NCBI RefSeq assembly: GCF_035594765.1
Contig: NW_026943823.1
Location: 7,316,001 to 7,380,000 of the forward strand
Direction: 5' to 3'
Origin: Anolis carolinensis
Lineage: Eukaryota
DNA: 64,000 bases
The notes beneath the pieces are model-generated. The model had not been told where the DNA came from and ran no database searches. It saw nothing but the letters and a program-made list of their open reading frames with translations. Both the position numbers and the translations under genes were made by a program. Position 1 is the stretch's first letter, and every line of letters begins with the position of its first letter. Shown here in pieces: positions 1 to 57,382 of this stretch.

Positions 1-1738
1 TAATAATCTCCATAGGGATGCCTGCCTGGCGGCTATCGTCTATTACTGTTCGCTCAAAGTCGTCCTTCAATGTCTGGAAGTGAAAGGTTACCTGCAGCAA
101 AATAGGTGAAGGTTAATGCTGGTTAGGTCCTATCATTAGTCCAGATTCGATCTTTCTATTTAGAGCCTCTGCTGGAGACCCATCCTCATTTAGAGAATAA
201 GGAGAAACTGCACATCCTTCTACAGGGTTCAGATAAAAACTCTATTTTAAAACTGACCCTTTTTACGCAAAAAGTGCGGGTCATCCGCGAGAAGATGGAA
301 GCGGAGAGCTGTGATATTAATGCCAATAACAAAATCCAAAGTTAAAATTTACTATGGACAAGCCACTAGTTTTACTTACCTTTGCCCCCGTTTAAACCTT
401 ACCTTAAGGAAAAAATTAATTTTAATCTTTTTATTTTGCATTTGCAAAACTACCTAGGAGTGGGTTGGTAGGCTAGTAGGCCGGGATGCTTTGTATCTAT
501 ACATGGTTTTACTGTATGTATGGGTAAGTATGTACTCACATGTTTTGATATGGTCAAAATTAACTAATCAATAAAGAGTTGTTGTTGTTGTTGGTAGTCC
601 AGATCCAAACGACAGGAAACTCTATGTCTTTTTCTGAATCCTTTGATGTTTAGCAGCTAATTTTTAAACTGGGTTGCTGTGAGTTTTCCGGAGTCTATGG
701 CCATGTTCCAGAAGCATTCCCTCCTGACATTTCGCCCACATCTATGGTAGGCATCCCCAGAGGTTGTGAGGTCTGTTGGAAACTAGGCAAGTGGGGCAAA
801 TATACATATACATGTATCTGTGGAATAATGTCATGGGTGGGAGAAATAACTTGTCTGTTTGAGACAAGTGTGAATGTTGCAATTGGCCACCTTGATTAGC
901 ACTGAAAGGCCTTGTAGCTTCAAGGCCTGGCTGATTCCTGCCTGGGGGAATCTTTGGTTGGGAAGCATTAACTGGCCCTAATTGTTTCCTGTCTGGATTT
1001 CCCCTATTTTCTGAGTTTTGTTCTTTATTTACTGTTTTAGAGTGTTTTTAATACTGGCAGTCAGATTTCGTTCATTTTCATGGATTCCTCCTTCCTTTTG
1101 AAATTGTCCACATGCTTGTGGATTTCAATGGCTTCTCGGTGTAGCCTGACATAGTAGTTGTTAAAGTGGTCTCTCATAAAATATGCTGTGTCCAGACCTG
1201 AAACAATCAGGGCCAGCAAACACCTCCCAACAAAGGTTTCCCTCAGGCAGGAATCAGTCAGGTCTTGAATCTGCAAGGCTGTTCAATGCCAATCAAGGTG
1301 GCCAATTGCAACATTCACACTTGTCTTAGACAAGAGTTCTTTCTCCCACCCTGGACATTATTCTGCAGATATATAAACCACACTTGCCTCATTTTCAACA
1401 GAACTCACAACCTCTAATGATGCCTGCCACAGATGTGGGCAAAACATCAGAAGAGAATGCTTCTGGAACATGGCCATACAGCCTGGAAAAATCACAGCAA
1501 CCCAAATTGTGGAATTTTTAAATTGCATTTTCCAGAAAAAAAATAATTTAAATTCCAAGCTTTACGGACGCATTTCCTTTGATCAATTGTTGCGTAATTG
1601 TTAAAAGTTCTGCAAACAGCTCCTGCTCTGGCAGCCACTCACCTTGCTTCCATCCTGGAAATCTGGAAGAACTCCGCAGCCTCCGTGTAAAATCTTTTTC
1701 TTGACGCCTTCCACATTCAGCAGGTATGTTTCTTCCAT
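1..1738 (-). CDS. AIPL1-like (AIP/AIPL1 family FKBP-TPR co-chaperone), coding exons 1-2; gene continues beyond window start
   Basis: Exon 1 at 1738..1643 (96 nt, [32 protein letters not shown], donor GTGAGT). Exon 2 at 91..<1 (acceptor [36 protein letters not shown]). Matches the human AIPL1 N-terminus ([15 protein letters not shown]...[22 protein letters not shown]) and its 96-nt first coding exon. Not in the ORF track. Confidence 0.9.
147..594 (+). mobile_element. 5'-truncated non-LTR retrotransposon 3' end (possibly RTE/RTEX-like)
   Basis: Open frame ending ...[20 protein letters not shown], then AATAAA and a (GTT)n tail. 10-bp TSD TAGTCCAGAT at 137-146 and 595-604. Clade assignment is tentative. 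Confidence 0.7.
670..1504. mobile_element. Penelope-like element fragment with inverted pLTR arrangement
   Basis: Minus-strand part encodes the endonuclease C-terminus ([19 protein letters not shown]). Orientation switches near 1195 and the element ends in CACAGCAACCCA. Degenerate hammerhead motifs at both ends. Confidence 0.8.
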
Positions 1739-1999
1739 GGCTGAGCGGCTCGCAAATCTTTTCTGAGATAAATCTGGTTGAGGAGTTCCTCGCTTAGTGT
1801 TTCACAAGGTTAATTAGAGTCACTTCTACTGATCTGTTTTGCCAAACATCAACATTCTGAATTTTGGTGCTTCCTGAAATCACAAGTGAATCTGTCAAAT
1901 GAAGCAGGAACCTTACTCTGCAGAGACCCTTTCAAAGGAGAGGAAAATGCACACGTATTAACACGGCCTTCCTTCTCCTGATCCTCTCGTCCTTCCAGG

Positions 2000-2006
2000 T
2001 TAATCC
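2000..2006. promoter_or_regulatory. CRX/OTX-type homeodomain site (TTAATCC) upstream of the AIPL1-like ATG
   Basis: TAATCC about 265 bp upstream of the ATG, with further TAAT cores nearby (about 1811-1816 and 2033-2038). Short motif, so it could occur by chance. Confidence 0.4.
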
Positions 2007-2205
2007 TGGATTTGTCTTCTTCATTTGCTTGGAATTAGATCAGGCTGTTTAATAAACAAGAGCTGCCCCTAATATCCTTCTAAACGATGCGAGCCATTTC
2101 TTGAGGCTTGGACCAAGTCGGGGCTGCAGCAGATCACACCAGAGTTTGGAAATAATCTGTGAAAAATTCATTTGCTATTTGTAATGGGTTAAAGTAGTTA
2201 GGTAC

Positions 2206-4374: not shown

Positions 4375-7300
4375 TCACTTCTCCATAATGGCTTCCAGTT
4401 GTTCCTGGAGGGAGGCCAGCTGTACAGAAATAAAGAAAAATAACAATAATAATAATGTTATTTTTGTAACCTGCTCTATCTCCCTGAATGGACTTCGGGG
4501 CAGCTTACATGGGGACGATCCCAATTAACATAGTTAAAATATAAAATATGAACATACCAAGTACACACATGGTACAAAGAAGTGCATAAACAATAACATA
4601 AAAACATTGTACAATAATTTTTGTTACATGTTTTCACAACATTGGAAAAGTGTGAGACAAAACAGGAGCATCTCTTCTTCCTGACATCCCAAAAATAGAA
4701 AGAGGGGAAGCTGTCCAAATTCACAGCCTTTCCTCTATTGCTAGCATTGCAGTACCAACAGACTCCTTACCTGCTGCTTCTCTCGCTCCTCCTGCTGTTT
4801 GAACTCATCCAGCACAGCTTGGAGACGAGTCTGGAAAAGGACAACAATAGAAACAAGTTTTAGCCAGAATCCTCTTTGTGGCTTACTCCAATATAACATA
4901 CTAGCTGTGCCCGGCCACGCGTTGCTGTGGCTGATGGGAATCATTTGTTGACCAGTTGGAATAGCAGTGAATAGCCTTGCAGTCTTAAAGTCTGGGTGTT
5001 TTCTCCTTACGTGAATCCTTGTTTGGCGAGCTGGAATACAATGGAATAGGTTTCCTGCTTGGAAGGCTGGGTATTTGCGTTGTAGGGAAATGGTTTTTTA
5101 GCCAATTTGAATGGCACTGAATAGCCTCGCTGTTTCAAAGACTGACTGCTTTCTACATAGGGGCATCCTTTCTTGGGCAGGCTGAATGAGACGAAGTAGC
5201 CTCATGGCTTAAAACCCTGAGGGTGCACTATGAAGGGGAAATCTTGCTTGGTTAGGCTGAACAGCACTGAATAGCCTTGCTGTTTGGAAGCCTGGTTGTT
5301 TCCTGCCTGGGGGAATCCCTTGTTGGGAGGTGTTAGCTGGCTCAGTTGTTTCCTTTCTGGAATTTAGAGGCCTCCATCTAAAAAAAACCTAAACCCAAAC
5401 ATTGGGGCCTGGGGGCCTCCCTCCTTGGGGCCAGGGCGCTTCCCGGCCTTGAGGCGTTTATCTCCAAAAGAAAAGAGTTAAAAGAAAGGAAACCTTGGTC
5501 CTTGCGGCCTCCCTCCGGCCTGGTGGGAGGCGGAGGTGGATCTTGGGGGGGAAGGTTCGGGCTCCGGCTCTCTCGTGGCCGGGGCCGCCCTGAGACCTGC
5601 GGGGCACGGAGGAGCCTGCAATGGTCTTCATGGGGAGGGGGGGGCCTTTCTGGAAGCCCCCCCCCTCGCCTTCGGCTCTGCAGGCCTCCACATCCCAAAA
5701 AAAGAAAGAAAAGAAATCTTGGGGCCACACGGCCTCGGGAGGCTGAGGTGGGTCGGGGGGGGGGGGCTTGCTCCGGCCTGTGGCGCATGGAGGAGGGGGC
5801 GCTTGGGGGGGGGGGGTTGTTCTACGCCTGCTGGGGCCCCGCCACGGCCTGAGAATGTTTACTCCGCGGCCCAACCGCGTGGAGGCCCCTCCTCCTCCTC
5901 CGACCACCATGGGGCCTTCCAGCCAGGCTGACGGCTGGGGGTTTAAGGTCCCATGGAGGTTTTGGATGGGATTTTTTATTGTATCAACCTAGAGGCGTGG
6001 ATTATGGGTTGTGTTGTCCAATTTCAAGGTTGGGGGGCCCGTAGTTTAGTTGTTTTGCTCGGTGCCGCGATGCCATCACTCTTTTATATATATAAAGAAG
6101 TACATTTTTCCAGTGCCTCACTTCCTCAACAATTACACTATGTAACAAAATTTGAAAAAACGTTCTGTTCCTGGTTTGAAAGTGTTATTTCCTGTTTAAT
6201 TGTGCAGTCCCGACTTTGAAAGTAGTTTTTTTACTCCAGAAACTTCATTTTTGTAGCTGTCACCTGTCAATTTCCCCAATCTCTGCTAAAGTGACCAGGC
6301 CTCCAGAGATATAATGAAAACAAGGGACAAGAGTGCAGGGTTCACCTTGAGCGCCAGGTTCTCGACTTTCATGATGAGTTCTTCTTGGCGCTTCCTGCGC
6401 TCTTGGGTCTCCTGCAGCTTGCCCTTCAGGTTGTCAATCTGCTTCTGGATGCCCATCGCTGGAAGGCAGAGCAGATTTGCTTTTTCTTTTATCACAAATT
6501 AAAATCCCCATTATCCCCAAACCACATGGTGAATAATCTAAAGTGATGGGAGCTGTCATTCAATAATATCTAGGGGCCCACGCTGGGGAGAAGCTAAAGA
6601 GCACCGATCACTATATAATATAATATATTTTATGTACATATATTGATACTAATATTGTAATGTAATTCAATATAATACTAATAATAATACAATATATGTA
6701 TTATATATATTAAATGTAATATTACTAATAATATTACTGTATAGTGGAATAGTACAATATAGTGATGTACAATGCTTATATTGTGCTATACTGATAATAT
6801 AATATGTTGTATATGCATATAGTGTTGATAGTAATATTGTAATGTAATGCAATATACTAATAATACAATATAATATTTATTGTATATGATATACTGAATG
6901 TAGTATTACTACTGATATTGCTGTATGGTGTTATGGTGCAGTGTAGCAGTATACAATGCTGGTGTTGTGCTGTGTTAATAATATAATATATTGTATGTAC
7001 ATATGACTTGTGGGCTACTCTGAGTCCCCTTCAGGGTGAGAAGGGCGGGATATAAATATTGATATTTAAATATTCAAACTAACAGCCAGTGTAACTTACA
7101 TCTATTTTTTTAACATAACTCAAAATATAAAATTTTTATTTATTTTTGTTAAGAAAATGACTGACTAGTTTATCTCTATTTCCCCTGATAAACTATTGTG
7201 TTTTGCCTAGGACAGATACATTTCTGAGTTAACAGCTAGATTCCATATTTATATTTAACTCTAAAGAGGCTTCTGATGAAACTATAGGTGAACTTTTTAC

Positions 7301-7430: not shown

Positions 7431-10400
7431 GCCCACCCATTACCTCCTATACGCTTAATATCAGCATGCCACTCCATATGTATTCTACCTCAATTGTGAA
7501 CACAACATAGATAAATCTCTTCCCAACATTCGATGAAAAGCTGCATACATTCGTGCTTTTGGAAAGCCTAATGAAGGTATTCTCCTAAGAAAAAGAGATT
7601 TCCTAGGTCTTCTCACCTATCTGATTGGCCCCTTCGTTTTCTTGCTGCTGCCCACTGTTTTCGTTCATCTTCCCCTGCAGCCTCCTCTCCAGATCTTCTT
7701 CGGTGTCCATTATGTTCAGGTCTTCGTCATCATGGCGATCCCGCTCATCCTCATCGCTGCTGGTGCTGCTGACATCCTTGAACAGCTCCCGGAGCTCATC
7801 ATGTTCTACTAGATGGAAGCAGAAGAGAACAGGAGATTTGTGGCTGTTGGAGTCCAAAACACCTGGAGGGCTGAAGTTTGCCCATGCCTACCCTATACAC
7901 ATATTGTAAACATCCAGTATCATTCTCTTAACCCAGCACCTTCATCTAGTTACATCCTGGATGACTTTTTTCATACTTCCTGACACAAGAAATTTCCCAA
8001 GCTGTCCAAAGATAAGCATCTAATTCTACTCAGATATTTCCCTGCTGATTAAATCATAGCTCTTTAAAAGTAAATAAGAGTTATATCATTGACTGATCTC
8101 TATCCCATCACAGACATTATGATGAAAATGTTTAAAATCAGCATATGTGTATCAGCAACATACAAACAAATAAAGCTGATTTAGAATATTTATCCTCTAG
8201 CCCAGCATGGCCTTACTCTGACAGGTAGCAGCTCATCCTAATATCTCAGGGTTCAAAAGACCTCAATTCTTTCATCGCCCAGAAACAGATCTTTTTCAGT
8301 GGAAATGCTGGACCAAACCTGGCAGCTTCTACAAGCGAGGCTTATGCTTTACCATTAAGCTTGAATTGAGAAGTATAGCAAATAGGATAGTACCCAAGGA
8401 ACCATGGCTTTGCTTGTGCCCAGACATCCTGGGAGAAGAAATATCCAGACTGGTGAGGGAACCATGGTTGTCCGCTTCTTTTGTTTCATCTTCAGCAATG
8501 ACTTCCCAGCCTGAGAGCAGGAGTGAAAGAGTCAAGGGAAACCCAGATCAATTGGAAGGTGTACTTTGGGTGGAAATAACAGAGACAGTGCTGTGTAGTG
8601 ATTTAAGTATTGTATTAGGAGACTGGAATTTAAATCCCCAGTCACAGAAAAGGGGGGGGGATTTTCACCAATGACATTGGGCAAGTCACATTCTCTCAGC
8701 CTCACAGAAAGGCAAACCCCATCTGAACAAATTCTGTAAGAGGAACAACATGGTAGAAATAGTTGGAAAGAAATAGCATGATTGGAAAAGTTACACTTCC
8801 AGGGCTGTAGCCATGTGGTCATGATTGCTTTTAACTTATTTTTCCTCTAAAGTCAAGAAATTTAGGCTCAGCATTCTCTCATGTCATGAAAGTTTGGCTC
8901 CCAACCTCTTGTTTATAGAAATACCAACAGAACCACTTTTTTGTCTACTTGTGGAGAGAAAAATCAGAATATAATCATAATAATAATAATGACAACAACT
9001 TGAGAAGTGTCCGATGTGTGATCAAATACAAAAGCCAGCATAGTGATATTATTTGCTGTGTACTAATCTTGTTGTGTATCAAGTAATAATAACAACAACA
9101 ATCAGTGTAACAATGAGTCTGAAAAGTATCCTTTTCTTAAGAAACCTTACAAGGCTGCTTTTTAAAAATATTCCCATTACATGTTACAGTATTTGGAATA
9201 CATTTCACAGCTGTTATTTATTAGAGTCTATTAAAAGTAGCCTTGTAAGGTCTCTAAGAAAATGATACTTTTCAGACTCAGTGTTTCACTGATTGTTATT
9301 ATTATCATCATTCTTTATTTATAAATGAGAATGCTATGAAGCTTGAAACCAAGCAAATATTGTTATGAACAAATTAATATTGTGAAGTATAAGTTGAGTT
9401 GATATTTAATTAACTGGGGAGTGTGTCATTTAAAGTTCAACTTCCTAACTATCATCTCAAGGAGAGAGAAAGATGAGAAAAGGAAAGTGAAAGAATCTAG
9501 AGAGGAAAAGTGAGTCCTGATTTTATAAAAAGGATACGAACACTGACAGCTTCAGCATCGGTGCTCAGCAGGCGTTTCACTTCCTTCTCCACATCTGGAG
9601 ACTCAATGTACTGGGCCAGGAAGAGAAAAAGAGTGGTATTGCAAGTTAGTTGCTTCCTCAGTAAAAATACGTGATCATCTTGAGTCTAACAAACAATAGC
9701 GTTGATATAGCGCAATTACAACTCACTTTCTTCTTAGCTGTCTTCCTGAACCGCCTCTTTCTCACATTCTTCAGTGGGAGAGTAACTGAAAGAACACACA
9801 GAAAATAATGAAACTATGTAAAAAAATAGAGATAAGTCAAAGGTAAAAATGAAGAAAAGAATCCAGCTTCTGATGAGATGGCAGAATGGAAGACAGCATT
9901 CCTCACACACATGGATTGGGTCTTGATAGTACTAACAAACAATATTCTATCCCCTTCAAAATCCACGTGAGAACTTTATGGAGAAGCTTAGCTAATTTTT
10001 AGAAGCAAAGATGTACCGGCGGATATTTCCTCCACTCACTTCCATGGTTCCAGATAAATTTCTTCTCTCTATCCTTGTCCTTCTTCTTGTTGGCTTTCGG
10101 ATCGGTACTGACAACCGGCTCTTCCACAGTGGGGTAGAGTTCGCCATCTATGGTGCACACAAGCATCTGAAGGACCCAAAATAAATAAATAGGGAAGCAG
10201 AAGTATTAAAAACTTAAAGAGAACCAAAAACAAATCTGGGATGTATTTACACTGTAGAATTAATGCTGTTTGACAACACTTGGGCTTGCTCAGTACTTTA
10301 TTCATGGGAGTTGTAGTTTTACTAGTCTTTAGCCTTCTCTAACTACAATTCCCATAATTCCATAGAAGTTCAAGTGGGATCAAACTGTAAATTTCCAGCT

Positions 10401-11995
10401 GAGCAGAAAAATACAACAATGGAGTGGGCAATCGATGGGCAACCGTGATACTTACCTGACATATATCTGCTGTCTTATAGAAAGTTTTCTTATCAATAGT
10501 TTTTAAGCTTTCAGTGATGCAAGGCAAGTCCACCAGTTTGGCAGCTAATGGGACATGGTCAACTCGCACAATCCCATGGCGCCCATCTCCTGCAGATAGA
10601 AAGTGATCATATACTGGAATACATCACATTGGTAGGTACTTCACTAAGAGTTTACTCAGCTAGTTCACAAAGGCAAGCAAATCACTTGGGAGTACTGTAA
10701 CATCTAACAGTCACTTCCCAATGTGAATGGCCCATCAAACAAGTATCTCACGTAACCTCAAATGCAGGAGAATTGTATGCAATTGGCTGTCAGTCAACAA
10801 GTGTATGGAAAAATCATATTATTTATTTATGTATTTATTTATTATTTGCTACATTTATATGCCGTCCTTCTCACCCCAAAGGGGACTCAGAGTGGCTTAC
10901 AAATTACATTCACATACAATACATTATATTATTAGCATAGTACAATATTAGCATTAAATTACTATATTGTACTATATCACGACGTATGCATGCCTTAAAA
11001 CCAATATGAGAAATTAGATAGATGGGACTTCTGTAGTCCTATGTCAATGATGGGCAACCTTTTGCACTTGGTGTGTCAAAATTCACCAAAAAACCTAGCA
11101 TGACTTGGGTGGTGTGTCACTTTGAGAAAAAAAACCATAATTTCGCAATATGTATCATTTAAATAACAAAAATGTATAATTGTAATATATAACTGTATTT
11201 AATAAATCAAAAACTATTTACTACCATTATTTCCATGTACAACAATCTATGGTACCTCTTGCAGTTTCCACACTGATTTCTCTCTATTATAGTTTCAATG
11301 TAGTCTTGAATAATGAATAATATAATAATAATATAGTAATAATATAATAATATACAATTATAGTAGAATAATAATAGAATAATAGAATATATATATATAT
11401 ATATAAACGTAATGTGCATAATTCCCATGGAGTAAATAACAAAACCACTGGACCAAATCACACCAAATTTGGCCACAAAAGACATAGTCATCCAATCAAT
11501 CTGCATGTGGCAGCGTATCACCAAAAATGGCTAGGCGTGTCAGTGCTGACGCGTGTCATAGGTTGGCCATCACTGTCCTATGTACTACCCCTGAAATTGC
11601 CATCATGGGAGTCCAAGATGTTTTAATAACCCTGGGCAATTTGAACTTCAGAGTATAATTAATAACCCAAGACTTGGATAATCAGAAAAAATCAAGTCCA
11701 AAATAACACCATCCTGGTTGATGTTGTCTCCTTACCATGAAGTTCAATGGTGAGCCTGTCCTTCAAGTTGACACTCCCAGATTGCACTGCTCTCCGCACT
11801 GTAGACGCATATTCCTGAAGAGACAAGTGGAGTGAACGTGGTGAAATGAGAGGCAAAGATACACAATGAAACAATATCAGACAGCAAGCATAAAGCACTT
11901 TTCTGTTATTTGTTGCCAGGGCCACTTACTGGAGGCAGTCGCAGAATAAACTGGCTCTCCAGCTCATGGGGCACATCGTCCTTACTCTTACTCAT
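4375..11995 (-). CDS. TAF7: TFIID subunit 7 (TAF7-type protein at the TAF7L-syntenic locus), 11 coding exons, 354 aa
   Basis: Exons 11995-11930, 11814-11736, 10589-10456, 10166-10040, 9785-9727, 9610-9538, 8510-8394, 7808-7617, 6458-6346, 4830-4771, 4419-4375; total 1065 nt, all phases consistent. Protein MSKSKDDVPHELESQFILRLPPEYASTVRRAVQSG...KKKYIESPDVEKEVKRLL...LASLQEQLEAIMEK*. Candidate poly(A) signal at 3893-3898. Confidence 0.95.
4901..6098 (-). mobile_element. Non-autonomous Helitron (copy 1)
   Basis: Minus-strand 3' end GCCACAGCAACGCGTGGCCGGGCACAGCTAG|T (subterminal hairpin plus CTAG). 5' end TC-T-TATATATATAAAAGAGTGATGGCATC. Same termini as the copy at 60483-61036. Confidence 0.8.
7379..7430. 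repeat. (TAT)n microsatellite
   Basis: About 17 perfect TTA/ATT units. Confidence 0.95.
8511..9537 (-). other. U12-type (minor spliceosome) GT-AG intron of TAF7
   Basis: 5' splice site GTATCCTTTT (9537-9528). Branch-like TTCCCTTGAC (8540-8531) about 22 nt from the CAG acceptor. Confidence 0.85.
11045..11575. mobile_element. Non-autonomous hAT DNA transposon
   Basis: TIRs CAATGATGGGCAACC / GGTTGGCCATCACTG and an 8-bp TSD TCCTATGT (11037-11044, 11576-11583). Confidence 0.85.
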
Positions 11996-15515: not shown

Positions 15516-16697
15516 TATATAAAAATTGTACAATGCACTATAAAACAGTTAAAAATTATTAACTTACATCAGACATTCATAAAACACATTCTAAAATACA
15601 GATGGGCGTGTTCAATTTTAAAGGACTGGGTCTGTCGATTGAGTTCAAATCAAATGAACATATATTATTAGCATAGCACAATATACGCATTAAATTACTA
15701 TATTGTACTATATCATATGGTAATATTATTAGTAATATTACATTTAATATATAATATATAATTAATATTATATTATATTATTAGTAGTATAATATTGTTT
15801 TCCATTATAATATTATTATCAATATTATATGTGTATACAATATGTATTTATAAATCAGTGTTGCCACCTTGATTAGCATTGAATAGCCTTGCAGATTCAA
15901 AGCCTGGCTGCTTCCTGCCTGGGGGAATCCAACACTCAGGAAACAGGGAATTCCAGGCAAGAAACAATCAGGGCCAGCTAACAGCTCCCAACAAAAGATT
16001 CCCTCGGGGCAGGAATCAGCCAGGCCTTGAAGCTGCAAGCCATTCAATGCTAATCAAAGTGGCCAATTGCAACATTCACACTTGCCTCCAACAGACAAGA
16101 GTTCATTCTCCCACCCTGGACATTATTCCACAGATATATAAACCTCCTTTGCCTAGTTTTCAATATAACACAACCTCTGAGGATGCCTGCCACATTTATA
16201 TGCCGCCTTTCTCACCCCGAAGGGGACTCAGAGCGGCTTACAAATTAAATTTACATACAATATTATATTATTAGCATAGTACAATACTGGCAATAAATTA
16301 CTATATTGTACTATATCAATTAATGTATTGTGTAATTTTAATTGTTAGCTGCTTTGAGAGAGAGAAAGAGGGATACAAATACTATAAATAACTCAATAGA
16401 GCAGGCAGGTATGTGAGGCAGATGCAGCCCCACACTTTTATTTGCCTCTTGAGCCACAGATGCACAATGATCATAATCATATTTGTTTTATTGTTTAACT
16501 TTTCTCATACAAGATTTTAGCTTAACTTTTTGAAAAGTTCTGTAATCCTCTTTAGGCCCTGTGCTGGGAGAAAGGCAAGATATCAGTTAAATAAATCCAG
16601 TGAAGGTAAATAAATGTGTCACTACTTGCGTGACTACTTTTTGGAGCAAAAGTGGAATATCTGGTCAATTTCTCACAAAAACTTTAGGGCGACTGGG

Positions 16698-19130
16698 ATG
16701 GAAGACTTAACCACACATGATGACTTCTACATTGGATTGGGCTTAGCTCTCATTTCCAGCTTGTTCATCGGAGGAAGTTTTATCCTGAAGAAGAAGGGAC
16801 TTCTCAAGTTGAATGGCAAAGGCTCTGTCAGAGCAGGTATTAGTCACAAATAGAAAAATCCCAGGCACCTAGTTGCCCAAATAGGGGTTCAACCTATTTG
16901 GCTGTGCTCAGTTCTGATTTCTCATGAAGCTTATTTTTTTCTTCCCAGGTCTTGGAGGCCATGCGTACCTGAAGGAATGGCTGTGGTGGGGAGGACTGTT
17001 GTCTAGTGAGTATCTCAATGCAAGATTTGACAGCTGCTATGAACATTTGGGCTATCATATGTATTTTTTTCTCTACCTGAACATTATTTGACTTGGTGAA
17101 AGTGAGTTTTCCTTTCTCATAACGTTGCCTTGGTAGTCATAATAATCAGTATCACACAATGACAGCTTGATGGGAGAAGAAAAAAGTAAGTGCACATTCT
17201 TGATCCAAACTTCCTTGCCCATCAAATAAAATGACTAATTGAGAAACAAGTTGTCAAACTGAGAAAACATTGTTGTGTGTTTGCTATGTCGCATCTCTGA
17301 CGGACTAATTCTTTCTTATAGTGGGAATTGGAGAAGCTGCCAACTTTGCGGCATATGCTTTTGCCCCAGCAACACTCGTCACTCCTCTTGGAGCATTAAG
17401 TGTATTAGTTAGGTAAGCACAATACCATCAACTTGTTTTGGACAACCCATTGTAGCCATTGCTGAATAGGAAAAGGAAGCATTGTTGTCAAACATCTGGA
17501 GGGCTACATGTCATCCCTGCTCTCAACATTCACCTTAGAGACCAGGTCTCTGTTCTGACCCTTTCCCACAAACATTGCCTTTCCTTTCTCTCTGTAGTGC
17601 AGTTTTGGCTTCCTACTTCCTGCATGAACAGCTCAACATCCATGGGAAAATTGGCTGTATCCTGAGCATTTTAGGTTCCACCGTAATGGTAATCCATGCA
17701 CCGCAGGAGGAAGAAGTCTCCAGTCTGGAGTCAATGGCAGAGAAACTAAAGGATCCAGGTATTATAATCAGCCCTCTTTTTTTCTGTGCCATGAAAACAT
17801 TGAGTTTGGAGAGAAGAAATTTTAAAATCTAGTCATTCTTTATCACTCTCCAATCAGTAAGCTGTGCATAATGCATATCTACAGTGTGTGTGTATGTCCT
17901 AACCCAACTTTTTCCTACTTAATGTTTATTTTATTTTTCTGACATAGCAATGAAAATGTTAAAGCACTGTGTATGCTGAAAGATGTATATATTGTTATTA
18001 GTAAGATATGAAATTACTAATGGGTTTCTGTGAGGTTTTTAGGCTGTATGGCCATGTTCCAGCAGCATTGGCCATACAGCCTGAAAAACCCACAGCAACC
18101 CATTCGTAATTTTATCTGTTACTAGTAACAAAATATATACATATTTTAAGCATACACGTTGCATTTAAGCATTCTCTCTTTAACAACTCAGTGCTTCTGG
18201 CCATTAAAGCCTTCGACAATACATTGAAATTACTAATTTTGGTCAAACTCAGTACAAGAGTTCATTTCTTATATATCTTTTTTCCTTATTTTGTGGCTCC
18301 TAATATTTGACTAGTGAGCAGATTGACTTTCCCAGTGCATTAGAGCCCACTAATCATACCTAATGCAGACCTTGATGGTTGGTCCAGGACATTCTGCAGT
18401 AAATGCTCTAGCCAAGCACTTCTCAGCCATCCCATCTCATCACTTGAAAACTGCCTGAAATAGATCTTCATGTCTTCCTTCTTTCCTTCCAGGATTCATA
18501 GTGTTTGCTGCATGCATGCTGTTGAGTTCGCTCCTTCTCATCTTCGTGGCCGGACCTCGGTATGGGCAGCGCAACGTTCTGGTGTATGTTCTGGTCTGCT
18601 CCGCCATTGGCTCACTCTCCGTCTCTTGCGTCAAAGGCTTGGGCCTTGCCTTGAAAGAACTGTTCGCTGGGAAGCCTGTCTGGAAGGATCCGCTGGGCTG
18701 GGTGCTATTGGTGTCCCTTGTCATTTGCATCAGTGTTCAGATCAACTACCTGAACAAGGCCTTGGATATCTTCAACACCTCTGTGGTCACTCCCATCTAT
18801 TATGTCCTCTTCACCACAGCGGTCATGATGTGCTCAGCCATCCTATTCAAGGAGTGGCAGCATCTTGTCTTGATGAATATCGTCGGCACTATCAGTGGCT
18901 TCCTCACCATAGTCCTCGGCATCTTCCTTCTGCATGCTTTCAGAGACATCCCTTTTACTGCAGACCTGCTACCTCTGTTTCTGAAGCAGGACCAAACAAA
19001 CATGCATGCAGCATCTTGGAGAAGTGAGGGCAAGCATCACTCTTGTGTTCACCAGCCCCTTCTGGAGGCAGAGTATGCCAACAAGATGGGCATAGACAGA
19101 GCAGAAGAGCAGGCAGGCCAAGATTTATGA
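16698..19130 (+). CDS. NIPA2-like magnesium transporter (NIPA family), 5 coding exons, 361 aa
   Basis: Exons 16698-16836, 16949-17005, 17322-17412, 17598-17758, 18493-19130 (139/57/91/161/638 nt, 1086 total). Motifs [65 protein letters not shown] and [23 protein letters not shown], as in NIPA2. Confidence 0.95.
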
Positions 19131-56295: not shown

Positions 56296-56516
56296 TGCCT
56301 GAGAGGCGGGACCGCAGGAACAAAACTTGCTCCCACTGGGAAGCTTAACCCCTTCGCTCCCGCAGGACTTTTAAAAACACATTTCTTTCCTCAATCGAGG
56401 AATCCAGGGCCCTTCCACACAGCTATACAACCCAGAATATCAAGGCAGGAAATCCCACAATATCTGGGTTGCTGGGATGTTTAGCCATGTTCTAGAAGCA
56501 TTCTCTCCTGACATTT

Positions 56517-57382
56517 AGCTAACACTCCAGAAGACAGGAGCAGAATTCAAAACGATCTTGACAGACTAGAGAGATGGGCCGAAACTAACAAAATGAAGTT
56601 CAACAGGGACAAATGCAAGATACTTCACTTCGGCAGAAAAAATGGAAATCAAAGATACAGAATGGGGGACGATGCCTGGCTTGACAGCAGTGTGTGCGAA
56701 AAAGACCTTGGAGTCCTCGTGGACAACAAGTTAAACATGAGCCAACAATGTGATGCGGCAGCTAAAAAAGCCAACGGGATTCTGGCCTCATCAATAGGGG
56801 AATAGCGTCTAGATCCAGGGAAGTCATGCTCCCCCTCTATTCTGCCTTGGTCAGACCACACCTGGAATACTGTGTCCAATTTTGGGCACCACAGTTGAAG
56901 GGAGATGTTGACAAGATGGAAAGCGTCCAGAGGAGGGCGACTAAAATGATGAAGGGTCTGGAGAACAAGCCCTATGAGGAGCGGCTTAAAGAGCTGGGCA
57001 TGTTTAGCCTGCAGAAGAGAAGGCTGAGAGGAGACATGATAGCCATGTACAAATACGTGAAGGGAAGTCATAGGGAGGAGGGAGCAAGATTGTTTTCTGC
57101 TGCCCTGGAGACTAGGACACGGAACAATGGCTTCAAACTACAGGAAAGGAGATTCCACCTGAACATCAGGAAGAACTTCCTCACTGTGAGAAGGGCTGTT
57201 CGACAGTGGAACTCTCTCCCCGGGGCCGTGGTAGAGGCTCCTTCTTTGGAGGCTTTTAAGCAGAGGCTGGATGGCCATCTGTCGGGGGTGCTTTGAATGC
57301 GATTTCCTGCTTCTTAGCAGGGGGTTGGACTGGATGGCCCATGAGGTCTCTTCCAACTCTACTATTCTATGATTCTATGATT
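56517..57382 (+). mobile_element. CR1 LINE, 5'-truncated (ORF2 C-terminus + 3' tail)
   Basis: MKFNRDKCKILHFG..., [19 protein letters not shown]...WNSLP...[13 protein letters not shown], and an (ATTCTATG)n terminus. CATTT duplicated at both ends. Confidence 0.95.

What the first reader, a model, noticed from the sequence alone, without database searches (positions are those of the whole stretch)
1..2160. An AIPL1 paralog outside the ORF track, in Xq22-syntenic DNA, with a photoreceptor-type site upstream
Seen: two spliced exons giving [62 protein letters not shown], a 96-nt first coding exon, and TTAATCC upstream. Established: human AIPL1 (the PDE6 chaperone) is on 17p13, not beside TAF7L; zebrafish has a second, cone-expressed aipl1 paralog. 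Inference: this is the second vertebrate AIPL gene, retained in a cone-rich diurnal lizard and lost from mammals. It may chaperone cone PDE6 specifically.
Basis: partly seen in the sequence, partly recalled or inferred. Interest (0 to 1): 0.7.

Follow-up and report, generated by a model that had tools for sequence, protein, structure and literature searches.

The report
Lizard AIPL-2, its only AIPL gene
This is the lizard's copy of AIPL-2, an already described sister gene of the human blindness gene AIPL1; it is the only AIPL gene found in this genome, so it likely helps fold the light-signalling enzyme PDE6 in all of the lizard's photoreceptors and not only in cones.

Summary
The exons are real. 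They begin an intact, spliced six-exon gene encoding 703 residues, identical to a protein already in NCBI. It lies between DRP2-like and TAF7-family genes, near BTK. It groups with zebrafish cone aipl1b in the AIPL-2 clade (99/97), and grouping with mammalian AIPL1 is rejected. That clade, its position and its loss in mammals and frog are in print (Bhalla & van Noort).

- No AIPL-1 was found in this genome.
- Platypus has both genes, and a newt has AIPL-2.
- An owl, a gecko, snakes and a gharial keep it.
- TTAATCC occurs at chance level.

Likely role: an HSP90 co-chaperone for PDE6 in all photoreceptors. Retinal expression was not tested.

Points not met in the passages read:
- A second TPR module in ray-finned fish, where coelacanth, newt and amniotes have an acidic disordered tail.
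- Lys269 in 230 of 231 AIPL-2 and 0 of 105 AIPL-1 sequences.
- AIPL-1 loss coincides with sauropsid loss of PDE6A.

Verdict: known gene, modest interest.

The parts
1643..1738 (-). Coding exon 1 of AIPL-2 (96 nt, residues 1-32), donor GTGAGT
   Evidence: best PDB match human AIPL1 FKBP domain, E 5e-7
92..1642 (-). Intron 1 (1551 nt, GT..AG)
1..91 (-). First 91 nt of exon 2 (180 nt, G000:C14:7316091-7315912). The rest lies left of the window: exon 3 7315751-7315563 (189 nt), exon 4 7313281-7313105 (177), exon 5 7312543-7312402 (142), exon 6 7311683-7310356 (1328 nt with stop; last TPR helices plus a 373-residue acidic tail)
   Evidence: the joined frame equals P0001; junctions 4-5 and 5-6 are spliced in 3 of 4 runs laid
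   Evidence: Contigs in X3 and X5 carry 604 and 707 nt before exon 4; coding exons 1-3 make 465.
2000..2006 (+). TTAATCC, a CRX/OTX2-type motif (motif name recalled); function untested
   Evidence: present, but at chance frequency
10342..10623 (-). Upstream neighbour, a TAF7-family gene with introns (TAF7L by position; name recalled); its last exon ends about 2.6 kb before the AIPL-2 ATG
   Evidence: TAFII55_N, E 4.5e-20; last exon read

Best explanation
This is the intact, spliced lizard AIPL-2 gene, the orthologue of zebrafish cone aipl1b and the only AIPL gene found in this genome; it likely works as an HSP90 co-chaperone that matures the photoreceptor enzyme PDE6, probably in all photoreceptor types and not only in cones. 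Shown: a six-exon, 703-residue frame, splicing of exons 4-6, clade, synteny, and no AIPL-1 found. Inferred from AIPL1 biochemistry: the TPR domain docks on the HSP90 C-terminus and alternates with the PDE6 gamma subunit, and the FKBP-like domain with its helical insert binds the client and its prenyl group. Inferred history: AIPL-1 and AIPL-2 both existed in early bony vertebrates (coelacanth, paddlefish, zebrafish and platypus keep both). Reptiles and birds then lost AIPL-1, while therians and frogs lost AIPL-2. The acidic tail is predicted to be disordered and is likely accessory.
For: Exon lengths 96/180/189/177/142 with GT-AG ends and one open frame; the AIP gene of the same genome has the same four inner lengths. 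Spliced joints skip exactly the predicted 561 and 718 nt in 3 of 4 runs, from three studies. Tree of 51 rows: AIPL-2 99/97, AIPL-1 100/99 (50). Tree of 35 rows: 100/98 and 100/100; holding sauropsid genes with mammalian AIPL1 costs 219 log units, p-AU 6e-7. The zebrafish row P0502 has Gln at 413, as the gosh allele requires. Order DRP2-like, AIPL-2, TAF7-family, NIPA-like, TIMM8A, BTK, RPL36A, GLA, PIN4 (gene names given by family and recalled order). Yak and frog AIPL-1 queries each find six exons here, five exons of AIP and two weak FKBP/TPR hits, but no third locus. An AIPL-1 profile finds nothing better than E 1.2 in 200 kb around PIMREG, while it finds the five AIPL-2 exons in the control region at 1e-18 to 1e-30. 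No sauropsid among 119 named of 120 listed AIPL-1 hits. 12 of 17 pocket residues and 16 of 19 disease or HSP90 positions named in the review match primate AIPL1. Model: FKBP plus TPR folded, tail pLDDT mostly under 50. In zebrafish, aipl1b mRNA is in cones and its loss removes Pde6c protein (PMC5381001 passages).
Against: The tissues of the runs laid are unknown, so retinal expression is not shown. No binding or chaperone assay on any AIPL-2 from a reptile or bird was met in the literature searches. Many of the conserved positions are shared with AIP too, which does not chaperone PDE6. At 9 of 9 clade-diagnostic columns the lizard has the AIPL-2 residue, and at K65, G116, Q117, P231 and A276, as at K269, that residue is the AIP one. 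The zebrafish protein has a second TPR module that the lizard lacks. Only 120 of 356 AIPL-1 hits were seen, and an assembly gap could hide AIPL-1. Only exon 1 of the PDE6B-like gene was checked.
Confidence: 0.78

Rival explanations
1. AIPL-2 stays cone-specific in reptiles and birds, as in zebrafish. It matures PDE6C only, and rod PDE6B matures without an AIPL protein or with AIP.
For: Zebrafish aipl1b mRNA is reported exclusively in cones. The review says AIPL1 binds PDE6 beta only through PDE6 alpha, and PDE6A is absent in sauropsids (no third PDE6 first exon here). A lizard with few or no rods would make cone-only expression trivial (recalled).
Against: It is the only AIPL found in the genome. 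It is kept intact in nocturnal, rod-bearing birds and a crocodilian (habits recalled). The review calls AIPL1 an obligate PDE6 chaperone and says AIP cannot substitute.
Confidence: 0.14
2. [quoted passage not shown]
For: It is the sole AIPL gene found. Many orthologues are named AIPL1-like. The chicken orthologue XP_001233085 was used as chick AIPL1 in PMC5381001.
Against: Two trees and the AU test. Coelacanth, paddlefish, zebrafish and platypus each have one protein in each clade. The published synteny puts AIPL-2 between BTK and DRP2, as here.
Confidence: 0.01
3. AIPL-2 has drifted to a broader, AIP-like HSP90 co-chaperone role outside photoreceptors, with the acidic tail acting as a holdase.
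For: It keeps AIP-like Lys269 and several AIP-like residues. Part or all of exon 6 was held by 20 listed runs from 7 studies of unknown kind and tissue. The upstream motif is at chance level.
Against: Zebrafish aipl1b becomes restricted to retinal and pineal photoreceptors. The genome has its own intact AIP. The tail is not conserved in sequence beyond close relatives.
Confidence: 0.07

Closest known systems
AIPL-2 clade (Bhalla & van Noort, bioRxiv 10.1101/2022.07.13.499904; J Mol Evol 2023)
   Same: Same clade and the same place between BTK and DRP2; birds and reptiles are reported to have only this AIPL (here 50, 54, 55).
   Different: The preprint puts platypus only in AIPL-2 and calls the gene missing in amphibians. 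Here platypus has both, echidna has AIPL-1, and the newt Pleurodeles has AIPL-2. The preprint has no mention of retina, cone, PDE6 or TPR.
Zebrafish aipl1b / aipl2 (gosh; Iribarne et al. 2017, PMC5381001)
   Same: Orthologue; 66% identical over 328 residues; FKBP-like domain plus TPR.
   Different: The zebrafish protein has a second TPR module at 404-554, and the lizard has an acidic tail instead. Zebrafish also has aipl1a for rods; no such gene was found in the lizard.
Human/mouse AIPL1 (LCA4 gene, PDE6 co-chaperone)
   Same: 60% identical core; most pocket and disease positions kept; best PDB sequence match is 8eoa_C, E 3e-137 (69).
   Different: Paralogue, not orthologue. Lys at 269 where AIPL-1 has L, V, M or I; Met at 151, 96 and 104 in the pocket; a 373-residue acidic, proline-poor tail instead of the primate proline-rich domain.
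AIP (XAP2)
   Same: Same fold and inner exon lengths; same Lys269 and several shared residues.
   Different: Separate clade; the lizard's own AIP is at G000:C1:238.60 Mb (18, 50).

Membership tests
AIP/AIPL family | N-terminal AIP-type FKBP domain with insert | tested here: met
   PF23322, E 2.6e-19; model and fold search
AIP/AIPL family | Three-TPR domain with K265, R270, W278, C239 | tested here: met
AIPL-2 clade | Groups with zebrafish aipl1b apart from AIPL-1 and AIP | tested here: met
   99/97, 100/98; 9 of 9 diagnostic columns
AIPL-2 clade | Lies between DRP2 and BTK | tested here: met
   Spectrin, EF-hand_2, EF-hand_3 and ZZ hits on one side; TAFII55_N, Tim10/DDP, BTK/SH3/SH2/kinase hits on the other
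AIPL-2 clade | Cone-restricted expression, as in zebrafish | not testable with these tools
   Spliced contigs exist but tissue and cell type are not given
AIPL-1 (human AIPL1 orthologues) | Groups with mammalian AIPL1 | tested here: not met
   AU test p 6e-7
AIPL-1 (human AIPL1 orthologues) | Lies beside PIMREG in the WSCD1-PIMREG-KIAA0753 block (human order recalled) | tested here: not met
   That block is on C9; no AIPL trace in 200 kb around PIMREG
PDE6 co-chaperones (works like AIPL1) | Prenyl-pocket and disease residues kept | tested here: met
   12 of 17 and 16 of 19 identical to primate AIPL1 (66); many are shared with AIP, so this is weak
PDE6 co-chaperones (works like AIPL1) | Matures active PDE6 with HSP90 and binds PDE6 gamma | not testable with these tools
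   Needs a cell or binding assay; genetic evidence only for the zebrafish orthologue

The most novel reading that the evidence does not exclude
Reptiles and birds lost AIPL-1 together with PDE6A because AIPL-1 was the dedicated chaperone of the rod PDE6 alpha-beta heterodimer. The ancestral cone chaperone AIPL-2, with an AIP-like lysine in its HSP90-binding groove and a long acidic tail, took over both PDE6C and a PDE6B-only rod enzyme. Therians ran the opposite experiment, and platypus keeps both genes. This would make the AIPL-1/AIPL-2 pair a natural test of what gives an HSP90 co-chaperone rod or cone specificity.
Probability: 0.3. Interest if true: 0.55.

Novelty: already known. Interest (0 to 1): 0.3.

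Why it matters
The gene and its history are published, so the finding itself is not new. It matters in three smaller ways. First, what databases and at least one paper call chicken or lizard 'AIPL1' is the paralogue of the human disease gene, so these animals are not orthologous models of LCA4. Second, the distribution is reciprocal loss, not simple mammalian loss, with platypus keeping both genes and a newt keeping AIPL-2. Third, clade-wide differences (Lys269, a second TPR module in ray-finned fish, an acidic tail) and the coincidence with PDE6A loss give concrete handles on why cones and rods once had separate PDE6 chaperones.

Tried and rejected
- Upstream motif as evidence of photoreceptor control: chance level. 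No related genome is held, so its conservation was not tested.
- Run search: no RNA holder listed on record.
- Run X9 gave one contig over exon 6 that runs into the intron and no joint.
- A second TPR module in the lizard: tblastn with fish TPR2 over 79 kb downstream hit only exons 4-6 (18).
- The C1 and C5 hits as AIPL1: C1 is AIP; C5 is FKBP4-like by eye.
- A UniRef entry labelled giant panda as a therian AIPL-2: it nests inside snakes, 100/97 and 100/95 (50, 87), so it was treated as contamination or mislabelling.
- Ten unnamed representatives were looked up for a sauropsid AIPL-1: six were named (frog, three teleost entries, mole, monkey), three had no name, and one was AIPL-2-like and led to the newt.
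- GAF family search was too weak to list PDE6 genes; a PDE6C first-exon query was used instead.
- The gosh stop (Q413) sits at the start of TPR2, but the mRNA is lost, so it does not test TPR2.
- Rfam: no match in the window.
- Earlier scan findings: none.
- Literature searches gave nothing on AIPL expression in reptile or bird retina (listings only). PMC5559027 is not held.
- No complex prediction was run: an AIPL-HSP90 pair would pass by likeness to solved structures.
- Therian genomes were not searched; loss there rests on the preprint and on the hit lists.

Full report
Observation. The quoted peptides are on the minus strand: exon 1 at window 1738-1643 (96 nt, donor GTGAGT) and exon 2 from 91 to the window's edge. 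The window is G000:C14:7316001-7380000. In the stretch to its left, exons of 180, 189, 177 and 142 nt with AG/GT ends and a 1328-nt last exon give one open frame of 703 residues. That protein is identical to P0001, which NCBI holds, so the gene is annotated. Residues 1-330 are an AIP-type FKBP domain and a TPR domain. The last 373 residues are 27% Glu/Asp and 2% Pro and are predicted disordered (pLDDT mostly under 50).

Transcription. Four of the 24 runs listed were laid on exons 4-6. Three of the four, from three studies, gave contigs that skip exactly the predicted 561-nt and 718-nt introns. Two of them run through the whole tail to 225 nt past the stop. A loose end in X15 reads, by eye, as the end of exon 3. 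The fourth run showed no joint. If the X5 contig is colinear, it ends near window 1980, 20 nt short of the TTAATCC site. That is compatible with a proximal promoter site but shows nothing: the motif occurs 10 times in the window against 12.45 expected.

Neighbourhood. Pfam scans of 49 selected window frames and 92 selected downstream frames give DRP2-like exons (spectrin, EF-hand_2, EF-hand_3, ZZ) on one side. On the other side lie a TAF7-family gene, a NIPA-like gene, TIMM8A, BTK, RPL36A, GLA and PIN4 (gene names assigned from family plus recalled order).

What it is. A tree of 51 proteins gives three clades: AIP, AIPL-1 (100/99) and AIPL-2 (99/97). The window protein sits with Pogona and Varanus inside AIPL-2, together with zebrafish P0502. 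P0502 has Gln at 413, matching the gosh allele of aipl1b. A second tree of 35 rows (17 rows of the first dropped for time, the newt added) agrees, and forcing sauropsid genes together with mammalian AIPL1 is rejected (p-AU 6e-7). Coelacanth, paddlefish, zebrafish and platypus each have a protein in both clades.

Is there an AIPL1 too? None was found. Yak and frog AIPL-1 queries each returned 13 matches: six exons here, five exons of a gene on C1 and two weak FKBP/TPR hits. The C1 gene is AIP. WSC, PIMREG and KIAA0753 families map in that order to C9 at 26.08, 27.40 and 29.35 Mb. In 200 kb around PIMREG an AIPL-1 profile scored no better than E 1.2, while the same profile found the five AIPL-2 exons in the control region at 1e-18 to 1e-30. 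The rest of the 1.3 Mb towards WSCD1 was covered only by the genome-wide searches. Of 120 listed AIPL-1 hits (356 in all), 119 carry names; they are fishes, frogs, coelacanth, lungfish, sharks and mammals, and none is a reptile or bird. An assembly gap cannot be excluded.

Distribution. All 120 listed hits (225 in all) class as AIPL-2. They include turtles, a gharial, many birds (an owl and a frogmouth among them), a gecko, snakes, a worm lizard, platypus and eight fish rows. One entry labelled giant panda nests inside snakes and was set aside. A Pleurodeles protein is AIPL-2 with an acidic tail. Retention therefore does not follow diurnal, cone-rich vision (habits recalled), and the loss is therian and anuran rather than mammalian and amphibian. 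Therian and frog genomes were not searched here.

How it likely works. By inference from AIPL1, the TPR domain binds the HSP90 C-terminus and alternately the PDE6 gamma subunit, and the FKBP-like domain engages the catalytic subunit (review PMC12733016). The lizard protein keeps 12 of 17 pocket residues and 16 of 19 disease or HSP90 positions, though many of these are shared with AIP. Zebrafish aipl1b is cone-restricted and needed for Pde6c protein. A PDE6C first-exon query finds two genes in this genome: PDE6C on C3 and a PDE6B-like gene on C2 (best match rod beta, 162 bits against 147 for alpha). This fits the published absence of PDE6A in birds and reptiles (PMC4906994). With no AIPL-1, AIPL-2 likely serves both enzymes (0.78 overall). 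Rivals: cone-only (0.14), broad AIP-like role (0.07), moved AIPL1 (0.01).

Clade differences seen here. (a) 110 of 113 teleost AIPL-2 proteins and 8 of 8 fish rows have two TPR modules. The other 112 rows, coelacanth and 115 of 115 AIPL-1 proteins have one. Of 84 tails of 100 residues or more, 69 are over 20% acidic; the lizard tail aligns only with close relatives and weakly with Rhineura. (b) Between K265 and R270, position 269 is Lys in 230 of 231 AIPL-2 sequences and in 0 of 105 AIPL-1 sequences where both anchors aligned (12 rows did not align and were left out). AIP mostly has Lys there too. That this position is part of the clamp for the HSP90 C-terminus is recalled, not tested. (c) AIPL-1 and PDE6A are both missing in sauropsids, and the review says AIPL1 binds PDE6 beta only through PDE6 alpha. 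This is one event, so it cannot be tested statistically, and mammalian AIPL1 also serves cone PDE6.

What is known. [quoted passage not shown] One sentence there about chicken chromosome 19 is ambiguous. The 2025 review equates AIPL-2 with cone aipl1b. Seen: passages of the preprint (figures, supplements and the journal version not seen); passages and one section of PMC5381001; passages and one section of PMC12733016; passages of PMC4906994. Points (a) to (c) and the platypus and newt corrections were not met in those passages or in searches (listings only). The library lacks most subscription journals, so they may be in print.

Verdict. The gene is already known. Interest 0.3. The boldest reading not excluded, co-loss of AIPL-1 with PDE6A and takeover by the cone chaperone, has probability 0.3 and interest 0.55.

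Noticed in passing
P0119/P0120 and P0360/P0388 (platypus); P0505 (echidna): Platypus has both AIPL-1 and AIPL-2, and echidna has AIPL-1, against the preprint's statement that platypus has only AIPL-2.
   Followed up: yes
P0511 (Pleurodeles waltl): A newt keeps AIPL-2 (78% identical to the lizard core) with a 143-residue acidic tail, so the gene is not lost in all amphibians.
   Followed up: yes
P0502 residues 404-554; P0005 residues 433-589: Ray-finned fish AIPL-2 has a second TPR module; in most teleosts it has Gln at the 269 position and Cys at the Trp278 position.
   Followed up: partly
P0024 (UniRef A0A7N5JWL6): An entry labelled giant panda is a snake-like AIPL-2, likely contamination or mislabelling.
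   Followed up: partly
P0049 (XP_001233085): The chicken protein used as 'chick AIPL1' in PMC5381001 Fig. 3b is AIPL-2; many orthologues carry misleading names (golgin-like, neurofilament-like, myb-like) from their tails.
   Followed up: yes
G000:C3:207.91 Mb (L051) and G000:C2:202.37 Mb (L052): PDE6C and PDE6B-like first exons are open; no third PDE6 catalytic gene was found.
   Followed up: partly
window 16614-19127 (+): A NIPA-family magnesium transporter gene lies between the TAF7-family gene and TIMM8A; no such gene is recalled at human Xq22.
   Followed up: no
window 5380-5990: A GC-rich stretch inside a TAF7-family intron, repeat-like by eye, with no Rfam match.
   Followed up: no
window 56512-57293 (+): A reverse-transcriptase-like fragment of CR1/LINE type (by eye; no Pfam hit at E 0.01 for the frame tested) between GLA and PIN4.
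   Followed up: no
G000:C9:27232001-27432000: The 200 kb around PIMREG are dense with tandem repeats and LINE pieces; the WSC, PIMREG and KIAA0753 hits keep their order but span 3.3 Mb.
   Followed up: no
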